Of a DNA stretch of 23,374 nt, positions 8,854-19,300 are shown piece by piece; within the stretch, counting starts at the first letter, position 1; the number at the start of each line of letters is the position of its first letter. Position numbers and translations under genes: made by a program. The stretch lies in the UHGV virus genome UHGV-0281963; one strand, written 5' to 3'. Under the pieces are notes generated by a model, which was not told the origin of the DNA, searched no databases, and was given only the letters and a program-made list of their open reading frames with translations. Source of the stretch: a virus.

Positions 8854-8975
8854 CTCTGTCGCGGTTTCTATCCGGGGTTCCTAATCCCGACGCCAGATTT
8901 TGCTGGCGTGCGATGAATATAATCCCGGATACGCGACGTTGTCAAACTGATGGCATTGCAGATCCCTACGCAATG

Positions 8976-10635: not shown

Positions 10636-10791
10636 TTACTCCTCAGGTTCGTAAGCTGTGAAGACAGTGACCTCCGTCTGGCCGGTTCGGATTCGTACCT
10701 CGCAGAGGTCTTTCCTCGTTACCAGTGCCGTCACAATGACGGTAATACAGATGACGATCAGGGCGACTAACATCGCCTTTTGCTGCTTCAT
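10636..10791 (-). CDS. hokD: Hok/Gef-family type I toxin (HokD/RelF-like)
   Basis: MKQQKAMLVALIVICITVIVTALVTRKDLCEVRIRTGQTEVTVFTAYEPEE (51 aa) is near-identical to HokD/RelF as I recall it; RBS AGGAGA before ATG 10791. An in-frame upstream ATG at 10848 would add 19 residues (70 aa total). Confidence 0.8.
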   Translation of the reverse strand: MKQQKAMLVALIVICITVIVTALVTRKDLCEVRIRTGQTEVTVFTAYEPEE

Positions 10792-11036
10792 AGCCTGCTT
10801 CTCCTTGCCTTTCGGCGCGTAAGAGGCTAACCTACATGTGTCTAGCATGAAATTGGCCTCAGATTAATGTTAGGCGTCTTGCAGGACGCGTAATGTTAAC
10901 TGGGGCTTTTCTCTGTCTGCCTTACGGTGGCATGCCCGAGGCAGACAGCCTCAAGCACCCGCAGCAATTCTACTTAACTCTCGCTTTACCGCAAACCGTT
11001 TTTACCCGATATGGGAATTCCCATATCGTAATGAAT

Positions 11037-15935: not shown

Positions 15936-16643
15936 ATGAAAACATTCGCAGAAAGACTAAATGCCGCCATGAGTTCAGCCGGGTTGTCACAAGCACAACT
16001 TGCAGACATGGTGGGGGTATCACAACCAGCCATACAAAAGATGTCATCTGGTAAAACAACCGGATCACGTAAAATGGTCGAATTAGCCAACGCGTTAAGA
16101 GTTCGCCCTGAATGGCTAAGCTCTGGTATAGGGTCAATGAGACCACAGAGCGCAGAAGAGCCATCTAATGCTCGGGAATCATCTTTAAAAGCTATCGCCT
16201 GGGATGATCATCAAAATGATAATGAAGAATTTGTTGCGCTCCCCCTTCTAAATATTTCACTTTCAGCTGGCGGAGGAAGTTGTGCATTGGAGGAGTCCGC
16301 AGAATTCTCTCTAGTTTTTAGGCGCTATTACCTGAAAAAAATGGGAGTTCCAGAAAAAGCGGCAAAGTTGGTCAGGGTTGTTGGGCAAAGCATGGAGCCA
16401 ACACTCCATGATGGTGATGTGGTGGGGGTAAACACGCAAGATACGAGCATCAGGGATGGTAAAACATATGCAATTTGCCAAGCTGATTTGTTAAGGGTAA
16501 AAACGCTCATAGCCACGCCAACATCGGTAATTATCAGATCGATAAACCGCGAAGAGTATCCTGATGAAGTAATGAACAGAGAAGAATTCTACAAAAACGT
16601 AAGAATCATAGGGCGAGTGTTCTGGTCATCACATAGCTGGTAA
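15936..16643 (+). CDS. cI: CI-type prophage repressor (N-terminal HTH, C-terminal S24 LexA-like autopeptidase)
   Basis: HTH segment LSQAQLADMVGVSQPAIQKM; S24 motif VVGQSMEPTL (Ser nucleophile) and downstream Lys (RVK); divergent from cro. Confidence 0.85.
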   Translation: MKTFAERLNAAMSSAGLSQAQLADMVGVSQPAIQKMSSGKTTGSRKMVELANALRVRPEWLSSGIGSMRPQSAEEPSNARESSLKAIAWDDHQNDNEEFVALPLLNISLSAGGGSCALEESAEFSLVFRRYYLKKMGVPEKAAKLVRVVGQSMEPTLHDGDVVGVNTQDTSIRDGKTYAICQADLLRVKTLIATPTSVIIRSINREEYPDEVMNREEFYKNVRIIGRVFWSSHSW

Positions 16644-16796: not shown

Positions 16797-17018
16797 TTAA
16801 TTACACAGTCGCATATCCTGAAGTAACACATCTATAGCTAACTTCACAGCGAGATCATCCAATTCATCATGGTGAAGCACTCGGATCATTCCCGCAATAG
16901 CATCTGCTGAAATAGCTTCCCCAGTAGCAATAACCTCAAGCAACGACACCCCTAGAATTTCGACTACCCGCTGGTGCAACACACCAAATTCCCCTTCGAT
17001 TAACATGCAATCACCCAT
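16797..17018 (-). CDS. hypothetical small acidic protein (about 73 aa) between cI and pL/OL (rex-equivalent position, opposite orientation)
   Basis: ORF-track ORF (88 aa from 17063); preferred start ATG 17018 with AAAGG/AAGGGGG upstream; no family recognised. Confidence 0.4.
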   Translation of the reverse strand: MGDCMLIEGEFGVLHQRVVEILGVSLLEVIATGEAISADAIAGMIRVLHHDELDDLAVKLAIDVLLQDMRLCN

Positions 17019-17351: not shown

Positions 17352-17657
17352 ATGGTAACCATAATCTGGAAAGAATCCAAAGGTACGGCAAAAAGCCGCT
17401 ATAAAGCTCGCAGGGAAGAACTTATTGCAGAGCGGCGCAGTAGTGAAAGACTGACACGGAAGATTGCGCTAAAGATCTCTGGTTGCGTCGGAGCAGACAA
17501 AGCAGTATCACTCGGAAGCCTTCGCTGCAAGAAGGCAGAAGAAGTCGAGAGTAAACAGAACCGTATTTACTACCGCAAACCACGCAGTGAAATGGGTGTG
17601 ACTTGCTCAGGCCGCCAGAAACAACGCGGAAAATCAATTCCGGCTTATTACGATTGA
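17352..17657 (+). CDS. N-like antitermination protein (basic, Arg/Lys-rich N-terminus)
   Basis: First gene after nutL; RBS AAGGAG 6 nt before ATG 17352; MVTIIWKESKGTAKSRYKARREELIAERRSSERLTRK is basic like an arginine-rich motif. Assigned by position and composition; no sequence similarity to lambda N claimed. Confidence 0.5.
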   Translation: MVTIIWKESKGTAKSRYKARREELIAERRSSERLTRKIALKISGCVGADKAVSLGSLRCKKAEEVESKQNRIYYRKPRSEMGVTCSGRQKQRGKSIPAYYD

Positions 17658-17662
17658 GGTTA

Positions 17663-17947
17663 ATGATGAAGTTCAAATTGAACGATGAAGTTAAATGGTC
17701 AAGCTCATCAAACGGTGTAACGAAGGTAAAAATCGGGTTTATCGTCGAGGTGATTCCTCCTGGTGTCAACGTAAAAAAATTCGAACTAGGCCGTCTGCTA
17801 GATGCACCTGGCCTTCCGAGGAAAGAAGAGAGCTATATAGTTTGTGTAGGTTCAAGACCCGGATCTCGTGCCAAGCCAAAATATTACTGGCCGCGAGTTA
17901 ATAACCTGCGTCGATTACAACAAAAAACTTGCGCCCTTAAAACTTGA
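17663..17947 (+). CDS. hypothetical protein (94 aa)
   Basis: GAGG then ATGATG at 17663; its 3' part overlaps another open frame (17868-18053) with a more protein-like C-terminus. Confidence 0.45.
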   Translation: MMKFKLNDEVKWSSSSNGVTKVKIGFIVEVIPPGVNVKKFELGRLLDAPGLPRKEESYIVCVGSRPGSRAKPKYYWPRVNNLRRLQQKTCALKT

Positions 17948-18084
17948 AATTCTTCAGGCCGCCGGAAAAATGCAGCTTAAACTGGACGAATTCATCGACT
18001 GTATGGATGAAATGAATAAAGCAGTTCAGAAGCTTAAAGAGCTGACCGCCTGATATTAATAAATTGCAACTACCGGAGTTAACT

Positions 18085-18444
18085 ATGAATGAAACAGAAC
18101 TGAAGCACATTATCGCCCTGCTTCTGGAAGATGCCAGACAGGTTTATCGACTTAGCCCAAATTCCGCAACGCAGGAACGCATCCGGATAGCGGAAACAGC
18201 ACTGAAACAGGACAATGGAAACGGCATATCCAAATTTAGCGCCGCCAGTGAAAATGAAGTAATAGAAATAAACAGCAATATCAGCGACAGTTGCGTCGCT
18301 TACAGCCACCAAATAATTCGTGTAAGTGCAAGAATAATGGAAGTGATGGCAAGTGAGCTTGAAAAGAACAACATCAAGCCCACTGATTGTTGTTTAAGAA
18401 CCGTAATGAACGTTATTTATTACTCGATGTTCCGAAGTCGCTAA
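18085..18444 (+). CDS. hypothetical protein (119 aa)
   Basis: RBS GGAG 8 nt before ATG 18085 (MNETELKHIIALLLEDARQ...); the ORF-track start at 18064 is a TTG. Confidence 0.5.
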   Translation: MNETELKHIIALLLEDARQVYRLSPNSATQERIRIAETALKQDNGNGISKFSAASENEVIEINSNISDSCVAYSHQIIRVSARIMEVMASELEKNNIKPTDCCLRTVMNVIYYSMFRSR

Positions 18445-18622
18445 CAGCGTCGAGTTTTTCATTAAAAAATGATTCAAATGCATCGTAAAATACGGCAATA
18501 GCACCGCCCTTATCTACCGCGGCAGGAACTGCCTTTTGAGGTATATCTTTCTCCGTAAATTGTGTGTTGTAAGTATCGACAGCCAGCCGCATCAGAAACA
18601 TCACTTTTTCTTCTTGTGTCAT
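18413..18622 (-). CDS. hypothetical protein (69 aa), antisense-oriented within the early-left operon
   Basis: Strong RBS AAGGAGA 9 nt before ATG 18622; its 3' end overlaps the 3' end of the convergent 18085-18444 ORF by 32 bp. Confidence 0.45.
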   Translation of the reverse strand: MTQEEKVMFLMRLAVDTYNTQFTEKDIPQKAVPAAVDKGGAIAVFYDAFESFFNEKLDAVSDFGTSSNK

Positions 18623-18844
18623 AAATTCACTCTCCTTACGGGGTTTGTAGTTGAGGAGTTCTCCACGGGTGAGGTGGAGATCGTGCGCCGGACACGGGTG
18701 AGTTCCTGCACTCTCAGTTTACTGAACAGACATTACCCTGAAAGCCAGGGTACTACACGAAAGCGCGAGGCGAAGACTCTTTCCCATAGAAGGATTGTCG
18801 TTAGATTTCTTCGACCGTGCGCTTCCGGTTGTGAATAACAACAT

Positions 18845-18901
18845 TGCTGTGTGTAACCCTTGGCGGATATCGGTTTGCCGATTGCTGATGTCCGCCCTTT
18901 T
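18845..18901 (+). ncRNA. dicF: DicF-like sRNA candidate with intrinsic terminator
   Basis: ttGGCGGatatcggtttgccgattgctgatgtCCGCCcttttt resembles my recollection of E. coli DicF (…ttGGCGGtatcagttttactccgtgactgctctgCCGCCcttttt) and is followed by aaagtgaattttgtgatg as downstream of dicF. Stem ggcgga (18861-18866) / tccgcc (18890-18895), then cttttt. 5' end not defined. Confidence 0.4.
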
Positions 18902-19078
18902 TAAAGTGAATTTTGTGATGCGGTGAATGCGGCTATGCGCACGCGGAACAGTTAAACCGACAGGATGTCACGGAAAGTCATCGTCCCCTGACCCGGCGTT
19001 AGTTGTTAACTGGTTAACGTCACCTGGAGGCACCAGGCACCGCATCAACAAAGTTCATTTGTGAAAATGGAGATAATT

Positions 19079-19300
19079 ATGATTGCTCATCACTTCGGAA
19101 CTGATGAAATACCACGTCAGTGCGTGACGCCTGGCGATTATGTTCTTCATGAAGGTCGGACATATATCGCTTCAGCAAACAATATTGAAAAGAGAAAACT
19201 CTATATTCGTAACTTCACAACAAAAACATGCATTACCGACTGCATGATTAAAGTTTTCATCGGGCGCGATGGCTTACCCGTAAAAGCAGCGTCGTTGTGA
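19079..19300 (+). CDS. hypothetical protein (73 aa)
   Basis: GGAG then ATG 19079 ([14 protein letters not shown]...); the ORF-track start at 19061 is a GTG; no similarity to DicB recognised. Confidence 0.45.

What the first reader, a model, noticed from the sequence alone, without database searches (positions are those of the whole stretch)
18085..18622. Convergent, 3'-overlapping gene pair inside the rightward early operon
The minus-strand 69-aa ORF has one of the best RBSs in the window (AAGGAGA) yet points against pL-driven transcription. Its last 32 bp overlap the end of the plus-strand 119-aa ORF. This fits a lysogen-expressed gene with built-in antisense interference, or a two-component toxin/immunity-like pair; neither protein is recognisable to me.
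Basis: seen in the sequence. Interest (0 to 1): 0.45.

Follow-up and report, generated by a model that had tools for sequence, protein, structure and literature searches.

The report
Conserved convergent prophage gene pair
Two small genes of unknown function that face each other and overlap at their ends inside a prophage's early operon are both real and travel together across distant phages, and they sit at a spot where different prophages carry different backward-facing genes; what they do is still unknown.

Summary
A 119-aa ORF ("A", 18085-18444, +) and a 69-aa ORF ("B", 18413-18622, -) overlap by 32 bp inside the pL-type operon (cI, N-like, A, B, DicF-like sRNA, kil, recE, gam, bet).

Both are genuine genes. 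B has dN/dS of about 0.3, and its first 20 codons show pS 0.4-0.9 against pN 0.04-0.12. B always occurs with a conserved ~45-aa C-terminal domain of A, or with a remnant of it. The two are always convergent, with 3' ends overlapping by 12-36 bp, in about 12 lineages including an Edwardsiella phage.

Either partner can decay alone, so this is not an addiction-type toxin-antitoxin pair.

The site is a hot spot. At least six unrelated minus-strand ORFs occupy it in other prophages, and most of the E. coli ones share one structured leader whose last hairpin sequesters the Shine-Dalgarno sequence (supported by covariation). Lambda's sieB, set against N, is the closest precedent.

No family, fold or literature match gives a function. 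Minus-strand transcription is inferred, not shown, and the promoter in this window is weak. This is most likely a prophage-state accessory gene with built-in antisense coupling to pL, plus a cognate early-expressed partner.

The parts
18085..18444 (+). Gene A, 119 aa, co-directional with pL. It has an N-terminal module (about residues 1-54), also found in other prophage genes, followed by the conserved C-terminal domain.
   Evidence: ORF and SD GGAG at 18075-18078. PGAP annotates it as WP_001005964.1. phrog_2982 at 8e-78. The AF2 model is four helices, pLDDT 68. The N-terminal module occurs without the C-terminal domain in 38 IMG/VR loci.
18307..18444 (+). A-domain: the conserved ~45-aa C-terminal domain of A (QIIRVSARIMEVMASELEKNNIKPTDCCLRTVMNVIYYSMFRSR). 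PT of the KPT motif is invariant across the seven lineages aligned.
   Evidence: Alignments. It exists as a stand-alone 57-62-aa gene in other phages. It is present only where B or a B remnant is present.
18413..18622 (-). Gene B, 69 aa. An acidic (pI 4.5), soluble protein predicted as two helices, on the strand opposite to pL.
   Evidence: PGAP annotates it as WP_000189938.1. phrog_2605 at 9e-45. dN/dS about 0.3, N-terminal pS 0.4-0.9 against pN 0.04-0.12. AF2 gives helices at 3-21 and 31-65, pLDDT 64. pI.
18413..18444 (.). 32-bp overlap of the 3' ends of A and B. There is no intergenic space for a terminator.
   Evidence: Overlaps of 12-36 bp occur in every lineage that has both genes.
18631..18637 (-). 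Shine-Dalgarno AAGGAGA of B. Its AGGAG core (18632-18636) is predicted to pair with the anti-SD.
   Evidence: Pairing and covariation.
18654..18658 (-). Anti-SD CUCCU in the B-sense leader, pairing with the SD core.
   Evidence: RNAalifold predicts the helix independently. The flanking pair covaries UA (9 variants) to AU (6 variants). CUCCAU:AUGGAG and CUCCAC:GUGGAG occur in other variants. Other leader types have UCUUGG:CCAAGA, UCCUC:GAGGA and UCCUG:CAGGA.
18661..18679 (.). Leader hairpin CTCCAC-N7-GTGGAG.
   Evidence: A compensatory variant CCCAAC/GTTGGG and other stems occur in relatives.
18623..18833 (.). Conserved leader block between B and the DicF-like sRNA. On the + strand it corresponds to the part of the polycistronic dicBF transcript upstream of DicF. 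On the - strand it is the 5' region of B.
   Evidence: Positions 18642-18833 match 3596 of 5426 complete E. coli genomes, including K-12 Qin between ydfC and dicF. The leader is shared by unrelated minus-strand cargo ORFs.
18716..18744 (-). Candidate sigma-70 promoter for B: -35 CTTTCA (18744-18739), 17-nt spacer, -10 TAAACT (18721-18716). The predicted start is about 87 nt upstream of the ATG, at the foot of the first leader helix. Inferred only.
   Evidence: PWM scan score 5.3 here and 9.1 in relatives with TTTTCA, against a background median best score of 7.3 per 300 nt. A TAnnnT motif is kept at this column in 14 of 15 leader variants, including L021, which reads TGTTAACAT in an unrelated flank. 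The consensus scan does not call it.
18848..18903 (+). DicF-like sRNA, downstream of the pair in the pL direction (context, not part of the pair).
   Evidence: Rfam RF00039 scores 29.2 bits, E 3.6e-4, below the gathering score of 48. It aligns with K-12 dicF.
19079..19300 (+). kil (KilR-type cell-division inhibitor), the next pL gene (context).
   Evidence: PGAP annotation. phrog_294 at 1e-37.

Best explanation
A and B are a small cassette carried in the early-left (pL or dicB-type) operon of temperate phages of Enterobacterales. A is read with pL, so it would be made early after induction or infection. B lies on the opposite strand. It occupies a slot where different prophages carry different backward-facing small genes, placed like sieB in lambda.

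B most likely has its own weak promoter about 95-120 nt upstream. Its structured 5' leader ends in a hairpin that hides the ribosome-binding site.

The two genes overlap at their 3' ends, with no room for a terminator. B's transcript is therefore necessarily antisense to the end of A, and pL transcription runs head-on into B transcription. The expected result is that B is made when pL is silent (in the lysogen or cryptic prophage) and is shut off when pL fires. The A C-terminal domain, which always accompanies B, would then appear.

Shown here: both genes are real and selected; the pairing and the overlap are conserved; the hot spot exists; the leader structure covaries.

Inferred: the promoter, the timing of expression, the antisense interference, and any protein-level link between A and B. 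The biochemical activity of both proteins is unknown.
For: Both genes are real:
- PGAP annotation and PHROG families.
- B dN/dS is about 0.3, with a strongly constrained N-terminus.
- Codon-level synonymous changes occur in the A-domain between the window and Edwardsiella phage EPP-1, read directly from the sequences.

The pairing is conserved:
- The convergent 3' overlap is present in the window lineage and in L006, L011 (Qin type), L005 (EPP-1), L018, L019/20, L021/22, L024 and L064-66.
- 44 of 66 further B loci have an intact convergent A-domain ORF. The other 22 have an A-domain remnant.
- Of 77 loci found with A-family queries (the 119-aa protein and a 57-aa stand-alone A-domain gene), 39 have the A-domain and all of these have B or a truncated B. 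The 38 that have only the N-terminal module have neither.

The site is a hot spot:
- Unrelated minus-strand ORFs of 77, about 92, 98-111, 76 and about 55 aa sit at the same place. All are convergent with and overlap the plus-strand ORF. The 77-, about 92- and 76-aa cargoes share B's E. coli-type leader and SD; the 98-aa cargo's leader has the same upstream part but a different hairpin.
- K-12 Qin has the leader but no cargo.

The leader is structured:
- The anti-SD:SD helix is predicted de novo and covaries.

Precedent: lambda sieB is antisense to pL and abuts N, 3' end to 3' end.

Composition: the AT skew flips sign over the B region.
Against: - There are no expression data of any kind.
- No sigma-70 promoter passes the consensus scan upstream of B. 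The candidate scores below the background median in this window because a 1-nt deletion weakens its -35.
- The conserved leader also lies within the polycistronic dicBF transcript upstream of DicF on the other strand (PMC10448788). Its conservation, and Watson-Crick covariation, do not by themselves say which strand is functional. Folding energies are equal on the two strands, -18.1 against -17.3 kcal/mol.
- No intrinsic terminator was found for B.
- Ragunathan et al. found no additional promoter inside the K-12 dicBF operon, though they looked at the sense strand.
Confidence: 0.5

Rival explanations
1. The pairing is functional at the protein level. B is an effector made by the prophage (for example an exclusion or host-modulating factor). 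The A C-terminal domain, made early from pL, binds or counteracts it, or represses its promoter, so that the phage's own lytic growth is spared. This would resemble SieB/Esc in P22 or other self-immunity arrangements. It can be true together with the best explanation.
For: - The association of A-domain and B is exclusive in about 140 loci.
- The domain stays in frame when fused to three unrelated N-terminal regions and also exists as a stand-alone 57-62-aa gene with its own SD.
- In Qin-type prophages the swapped segment is exactly [A-domain + B coding sequence] against [77-aa ORF].
- Both partners are under purifying selection.
Against: - Tight physical linkage alone would also give co-occurrence.
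- Each partner survives without the other. B has pN/pS 0.10-0.15 in the clade where A is frameshifted. A is intact where B is deleted, in Shigella phages 75/02 Stx and POCJ13.
- No structure or family hint of interaction or DNA binding: ribbon-helix-helix idea, hhalign probability 1%, and AF2 models a helix where a strand would be needed.
Confidence: 0.3
2. The RNA is the main product. Minus-strand transcription from the leader serves chiefly as a brake: it collides with, or pairs with, leaky pL or dicB-operon transcripts before they reach the toxic DicF, kil or dicB genes in the lysogen. The encoded peptide is secondary.
For: - The slot always lies between the early promoter and the DicF/kil/dicB segment in the E. 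coli lineages.
- The orientation and the 3' overlap are kept while the cargo coding sequence is interchangeable.
- Lambda OOP RNA against cII is a known lambdoid case of 3'-overlap antisense control (my own knowledge, not tested here).
Against: - B's amino-acid sequence is strongly constrained, with synonymous sites nearly saturated between lineages while the N-terminal helix stays nearly invariant.
- K-12 Qin keeps the leader with no cargo, and the toxic genes are controlled there by DicA.
- In L019 the downstream genes are not division inhibitors.
Confidence: 0.12
3. A and B form a classical type II toxin-antitoxin (addiction) module.
Against: - The genes are convergent, not co-transcribed.
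- No match to toxin, antitoxin or defence families in Pfam, NCBIfam or PADLOC.
- Either gene is found alone, with the survivor intact.
Confidence: 0.04
4. B is a chance ORF on the antisense strand of a conserved non-coding or coding region and makes no protein.
For: It is short, has no known domain, and several phage records leave it unannotated.
Against: - dN/dS is about 0.3 overall. The first 20 codons show 5-11 synonymous against 2-3 non-synonymous changes between the window and other lineages.
- The length, start codon and SD are conserved down to 30-45% identity in 16 cluster representatives.
- pN/pS is 0.10-0.15 within the B-only clade.
Confidence: 0.02

Closest known systems
sieB of phage lambda (also P22 and the Rac prophage): a superinfection-exclusion gene transcribed against pL
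   Same: A gene on the strand opposite to pL, inside the early-left operon, between the N side and the kil side. Its 3' end meets the 3' end of the preceding pL gene (lambda sieB 34482-35036 against N 35037-35438). From my own knowledge, sieB is expressed from the prophage, and in P22 it has a phage-encoded escape function (esc).
   Different: No sequence similarity (no Pfam hit). B is a 69-aa soluble acidic two-helix protein, whereas SieB is a membrane protein of about 190 aa. B overlaps its neighbour by 32 bp and travels with a specific partner domain on the other strand. No exclusion phenotype is known for B.
Morons and accessory-gene hot spots of temperate phages (Hendrix-type morons; defence hot spots in P2/P4-like elements)
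   Same: Presence/absence and replacement polymorphism at one fixed site between conserved genes. At least six unrelated cargo ORFs occur there, and K-12 Qin has none. The orientation is independent of the surrounding operon.
   Different: No own terminator and no clear GC deviation. In the E. coli-type loci the upstream leader and SD (and the candidate promoter within it) belong to the conserved flank, not to the inserted cargo. The cargo is embedded by 3' overlap in the neighbouring gene.
Cis-antisense control through 3' overlap in lambdoid phages (OOP RNA against cII mRNA)
   Same: Convergent transcription units whose 3' ends overlap by tens of nucleotides in a lambdoid regulatory region, which would give RNA duplexes and polymerase collisions.
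   Different: OOP is a non-coding 77-nt RNA with a mapped promoter and terminator. Here the antisense partner encodes a conserved protein, and no transcript has been mapped.
dicBF operon of the Qin prophage (ydfABC-dicF-dicB)
   Same: The leader next to B is homologous to the region between ydfC and dicF in K-12. A DicF-like sRNA and a division inhibitor follow.
   Different: K-12 Qin lacks both A-domain and B. Published work treats this region only as part of the sense-strand DicF precursor.

Membership tests
SieB superinfection exclusion family | Sequence homology to SieB | tested here: not met
   No Pfam, NCBIfam or PADLOC hit for B. PHROG assignment is phrog_2605, unknown function.
SieB superinfection exclusion family | Membrane protein of about 160-190 aa | tested here: not met
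   B is 69 aa with GRAVY -0.23 and pI 4.5. AF2 gives two helices, and the sequence has no long hydrophobic stretch.
SieB superinfection exclusion family | Placed in the pL operon on the opposite strand, end to end with a pL gene | tested here: met
   compared with lambda.
SieB superinfection exclusion family | Expressed in lysogens and aborts superinfecting phage | not testable with these tools
   Needs RNA or protein data and plating assays.
Type II toxin-antitoxin module | Two co-directional, co-transcribed genes | tested here: not met
   The genes are convergent.
Type II toxin-antitoxin module | Homology of either protein to known toxin or antitoxin families | tested here: not met
   PDB sequence and fold searches were empty.
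Type II toxin-antitoxin module | Partners not lost singly (addiction) | tested here: not met
   A B-only clade exists with a frameshifted A remnant. An A-only clade exists with B deleted.
Moron (independent transcription unit inserted in a phage operon) | Present in some related phages and absent from others at the same site | tested here: met
Moron (independent transcription unit inserted in a phage operon) | Own promoter | tested here: inconclusive
   The candidate CTTTCA-N17-TAAACT is weak in the window but positionally conserved in relatives.
Moron (independent transcription unit inserted in a phage operon) | Own terminator | tested here: not met
   No terminator-like site lies after B, and the 3' end lies inside A.
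Cis-antisense pair with 3' overlap | Coding regions or transcripts overlap at their 3' ends | tested here: met
   32 bp here and 12-36 bp in all lineages, at the level of ORFs. Transcripts were not mapped.
Cis-antisense pair with 3' overlap | Antisense transcript exists and alters the level of the sense transcript | not testable with these tools
   Needs strand-specific RNA-seq and mutants in RNase III or the promoter.
Hha/YmoA family (considered for B) | Sequence or profile similarity to Hha | tested here: not met
   hhalign probability 2.4%. No Pfam hit.
Ribbon-helix-helix DNA-binding domain (considered for the A-domain) | Profile similarity and a strand-helix-helix fold | tested here: not met
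   hhalign against CopG and Arc gives the expected register but probability about 1%. AF2 models a long helix where the strand should be. No PDB or Pfam hit.

The most novel reading that the evidence does not exclude
The slot next to the DicF leader may be a previously unrecognised cargo or defence island of lambdoid prophages, expressed backwards from a shared leader that is controlled at the RNA level. Under this reading the A-domain/B cassette is a new two-protein module: B acts in the lysogen (for example by excluding other phages or modulating the host), and the early-made A-domain switches it off or neutralises it when the prophage itself goes lytic.
Probability: 0.15. Interest if true: 0.65.

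Novelty: new variant of a known kind. Interest (0 to 1): 0.4.

Why it matters
If B and the other backward-facing cargo genes are made in lysogens, this is a compact and widespread site of prophage accessory functions. The cassette itself is in 81 of 5426 complete E. coli genomes, including the O104:H4 outbreak lineage, and the leader is in 3596 of them. The site lies directly beside the DicF, Kil and DicB cell-division inhibitors.

It would add a second lambda-type example, beside sieB, of genes wired against pL. It would also offer a tractable case of a ribosome-binding site hidden by a covarying hairpin, and of two proteins encoded tail-to-tail on opposite strands that are inherited as a unit.

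If B is not expressed, the finding reduces to two conserved hypothetical genes.

Tried and rejected
- Hha/YmoA similarity of B, suggested by the LMRL and AVFY motifs: hhalign probability 2.4%, rejected.
- Ribbon-helix-helix fold for the A-domain: no statistical or structural support.
- Pfam, NCBIfam, PADLOC, PDB sequence search, and Foldseek against PDB and BFVD for both proteins: nothing significant. The AF2 models have only moderate confidence (pLDDT 64 and 68).
- An "extended -10" promoter TG(G/T)TATC(T/C)T about 38 nt upstream of B in the non-E. coli lineages. Rejected: that element is the 5' arm of the SD-sequestering hairpin and covaries with the SD flank.
- The idea that the RNase III-made 5' end of the 190-nt DicF species coincides with an antisense start site. 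In K-12 it maps about 110 nt away, in a segment this window lacks.
- Strand assignment of the leader structure by folding energy: no difference between strands.
- Literature searches by protein accession and by dicF, antisense and ydfC terms: nothing on these ORFs.
- The GTDB genome scan gave only two loci. An A-domain alignment was too variable for a locus scan.

Full report
**Context.** The window is the immunity and early region of a lambdoid prophage.
- cI (HTH + S24 peptidase) lies at 15936-16643 on the + strand. A Cro-like gene and cII lie on the - strand.
- On the + strand after cI come a weak N_peptide match (17352-17657), the two ORFs of the finding, kil (19079-19300), a 128-aa ORF, recE, gam and bet/recT.
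- The stretch 18000-18750 is 100% identical to a prophage in E. coli FORC_069. It occurs in 81 of 5426 complete E. coli genomes (65 with at least 80% coverage), including O104:H4 outbreak strains at 98.3% identity.

**The observation.** It holds exactly.
- A runs from 18085 to 18444 (119 aa), with SD GGAG at 18075-18078.
- B runs from 18622 down to 18413 (69 aa), with SD AAGGAGA 8 nt before the ATG.
- The overlap is 32 bp.
- PGAP annotates both as hypothetical proteins. Several phage records annotate only A.
- Both match full-length PHROG families of unknown function.

**Are both real genes?** Yes.
- B homologues at 44-96% identity give dN/dS of about 0.3.
- In the first 20 codons there are 5-11 synonymous against 2-3 non-synonymous changes between the window and other lineages. 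That is pS 0.42-0.92 against pN 0.04-0.06.
- A full HMMER pass over 1.8 billion representative proteins finds only 16 representatives. Most are about 58-69 aa. They share a near-invariant N-terminal helix (MT[KQ]EEKVMFLMRLAVDT) and a C-terminal helix (IExxYDKxExFLDKKL).
- A's C-terminal ~45 residues (the "A-domain", with invariant PT of a KPT motif) are conserved down to Edwardsiella phage EPP-1, with synonymous codon changes.

**The pairing.** In every lineage examined, B is convergent with, and overlaps the 3' end of, a pL-strand ORF that ends in the A-domain.

| Lineage | Overlap |
|---|---|
| window | 32 bp |
| L006 | 29 bp |
| L011 (Qin type) | 23 bp |
| EPP-1 (L005) | 33 bp |
| L018 | 18 bp |
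| L019/20 | 21 bp |
| L021/22 | 27 bp |
| L024 (Serratia) | 36 bp |
| L064-66 | 27 bp |

- The part of the partner ORF in front of the A-domain varies. The domain stands alone as a 57-62-aa gene, or follows about 75 aa here, or follows about 150 unrelated aa in two other contexts.
- Of 66 further B loci, 44 have an intact convergent A-domain ORF. The other 22, one clade, have a recognisable but frameshifted remnant of it.
- Of 77 loci found with A-family queries (the 119-aa protein and a 57-aa stand-alone A-domain gene), 34 have A-domain plus full B and 5 have A-domain plus a truncated B. The remaining 38 carry only the N-terminal module and have neither.
- So the A-domain and B are never found without at least a trace of each other.
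- Either one can decay. B stays under strong selection (pN/pS 0.10-0.15) where A is broken. A stays intact where a ~300-bp deletion removed B's 5' half, in Shigella phages 75/02 Stx and POCJ13 and several E. coli prophages.
- This rules out an addiction-type toxin-antitoxin pair. It leaves open a looser functional partnership.

**The site is a hot spot.** In other prophages the same position holds unrelated minus-strand ORFs. The position is after the "MNETELKH..." or "MEFKDLP..." early gene and before the DicF leader.
- 77 aa in O157:H7 (WP_000920491.1, phrog_10348).
- About 92 aa in a RacR-type prophage.
- 98-111 aa (phrog_8894). One member scores just above the gathering score for GhoS.
- 76 aa (phrog_7249).
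- About 55 aa.
- All are convergent and overlap the plus-strand ORF by 4-29 bp.
- The 77-, about 92- and 76-aa cargoes use the same E. coli-type leader and SD as B (...CAGGAGGGTGA-ATG). The 98-aa cargo's leader shares the upstream part but has a different hairpin and SD flank.
- K-12 Qin keeps the leader but has no cargo.
- Lambda itself has sieB at the equivalent place, antisense to pL and abutting N, 3' end to 3' end.

**The leader.** Positions 18642-18833 match 3596 of 5426 E. coli genomes.
- On the + strand this region lies upstream of DicF in the polycistronic dicBF transcript. [quoted passage not shown] A DicF-like sRNA follows at 18848-18903.
- Read in the B sense, 15 distinct leader variants fold into three helices. 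In the last helix an anti-SD (CUCCU, 18658-18654) pairs with the SD core (AGGAG, 18636-18632).
- RNAalifold predicts this helix on its own. The flanking pair covaries, UA in 9 variants and AU in 6, with CUCCAU:AUGGAG and CUCCAC:GUGGAG variants.
- The covariation score is 0.143 against 0.051 in shuffles, with 0 of 500 shuffles reaching it.
- The non-E. coli leader types have the same architecture with different sequences: UCUUGG:CCAAGA, UCCUC:GAGGA and UCCUG:CAGGA.
- Watson-Crick covariation and folding energy (-18.1 against -17.3 kcal/mol) do not tell the strands apart.
- Two points favour a B-sense function: one arm of the helix is the SD itself, and K-12 leaders without cargo lack that arm.

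**The promoter.** This is the weak link.
- The consensus scan finds no minus-strand promoter upstream of B.
- The best candidate is CTTTCA-N17-TAAACT (18744-18716). Relatives have TTTTCA.
- It would start transcription at the foot of the first leader helix. A TAnnnT motif is kept at that column in 14 of 15 variants, including L021, where the upstream flank is unrelated and the motif reads TGTTAACAT.
- In this window it scores below the background median.

**Function.**
- No family, defence-system, solved-structure or fold match was found for either protein.
- B is modelled as two helices and A as four, at moderate confidence.
- Two leads from memory were tested and not supported: Hha for B and ribbon-helix-helix for the A-domain.
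- Literature searches found nothing on these ORFs.

**Verdict.** This is a conserved tail-to-tail cassette sitting in a cargo hot spot of lambdoid early-left operons.
- The "lysogen-expressed gene with antisense interference" reading is the best available. It rests on architecture and precedent, not on expression data.
- The "toxin/immunity" reading survives only in a soft form, as a cognate early-expressed partner. It does not survive as an addiction module.

Noticed in passing
window 18848-18903 (+), and 18899-19093 (+): A DicF-like sRNA lies below Rfam's gathering score (29.2 bits against 48, E 3.6e-4). It is followed, upstream of kil, by a partial sub-threshold match to STnc100 (31 bits against 47).
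   Followed up: partly
L016, L089, L090, L132, L133, L137, L138, L143 (other E. coli prophages), same site as window 18400-18640: At least five other unrelated minus-strand small ORFs occupy the same slot. All are convergent with and overlap the plus-strand early gene. One (98 aa, phrog_8894) scores marginally above the Pfam gathering score for GhoS (21.8 bits against 21).
   Followed up: partly
window 18632-18658 (-), and the homologous leaders: A hairpin pairing an anti-SD with the Shine-Dalgarno sequence of the backward-facing cargo gene. It shows compensatory changes across leader variants and leader types, which suggests translational control.
   Followed up: yes
window 16797-17006 (-): Another minus-strand ORF (69 aa, annotated WP_024166114.1) lies between cI and the N-like gene, also opposite to pL. 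It has no family match.
   Followed up: no
window 17603-18053 (+): The annotated 61-aa ORF (17868-18053) matches only the C-terminal 47 residues of a 229-aa PHROG family (phrog_2539). Related phages have a 237-aa gene there. An unannotated ORF (17603-17947) overlaps it and matches phrog_11941 over its full 88 positions. This is probably a mosaic junction or a mis-annotation.
   Followed up: no
window 4767-4973 (-), 8722-8806 (-), 8832-8909 (-), 10786-10960 (-): Rfam matches above gathering score elsewhere in the prophage: STnc100, C4 antisense RNA, isrK and a sok antitoxin RNA. The sok match implies a hok/sok-type locus.
   Followed up: no
L005 (Edwardsiella phage EPP-1) 2930-4000: About 1 kb with no annotated gene lies between the B homologue and rdgC. 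Read by eye, it contains a GC-rich hairpin plus T-run that resembles the DicF terminator. Rfam does not call it DicF at E <= 0.1.
   Followed up: partly
L067-L088 (IMG/VR contigs): A clade of DicA-type prophages keeps B under strong purifying selection while the convergent A-domain has decayed to a frameshifted remnant.
   Followed up: yes
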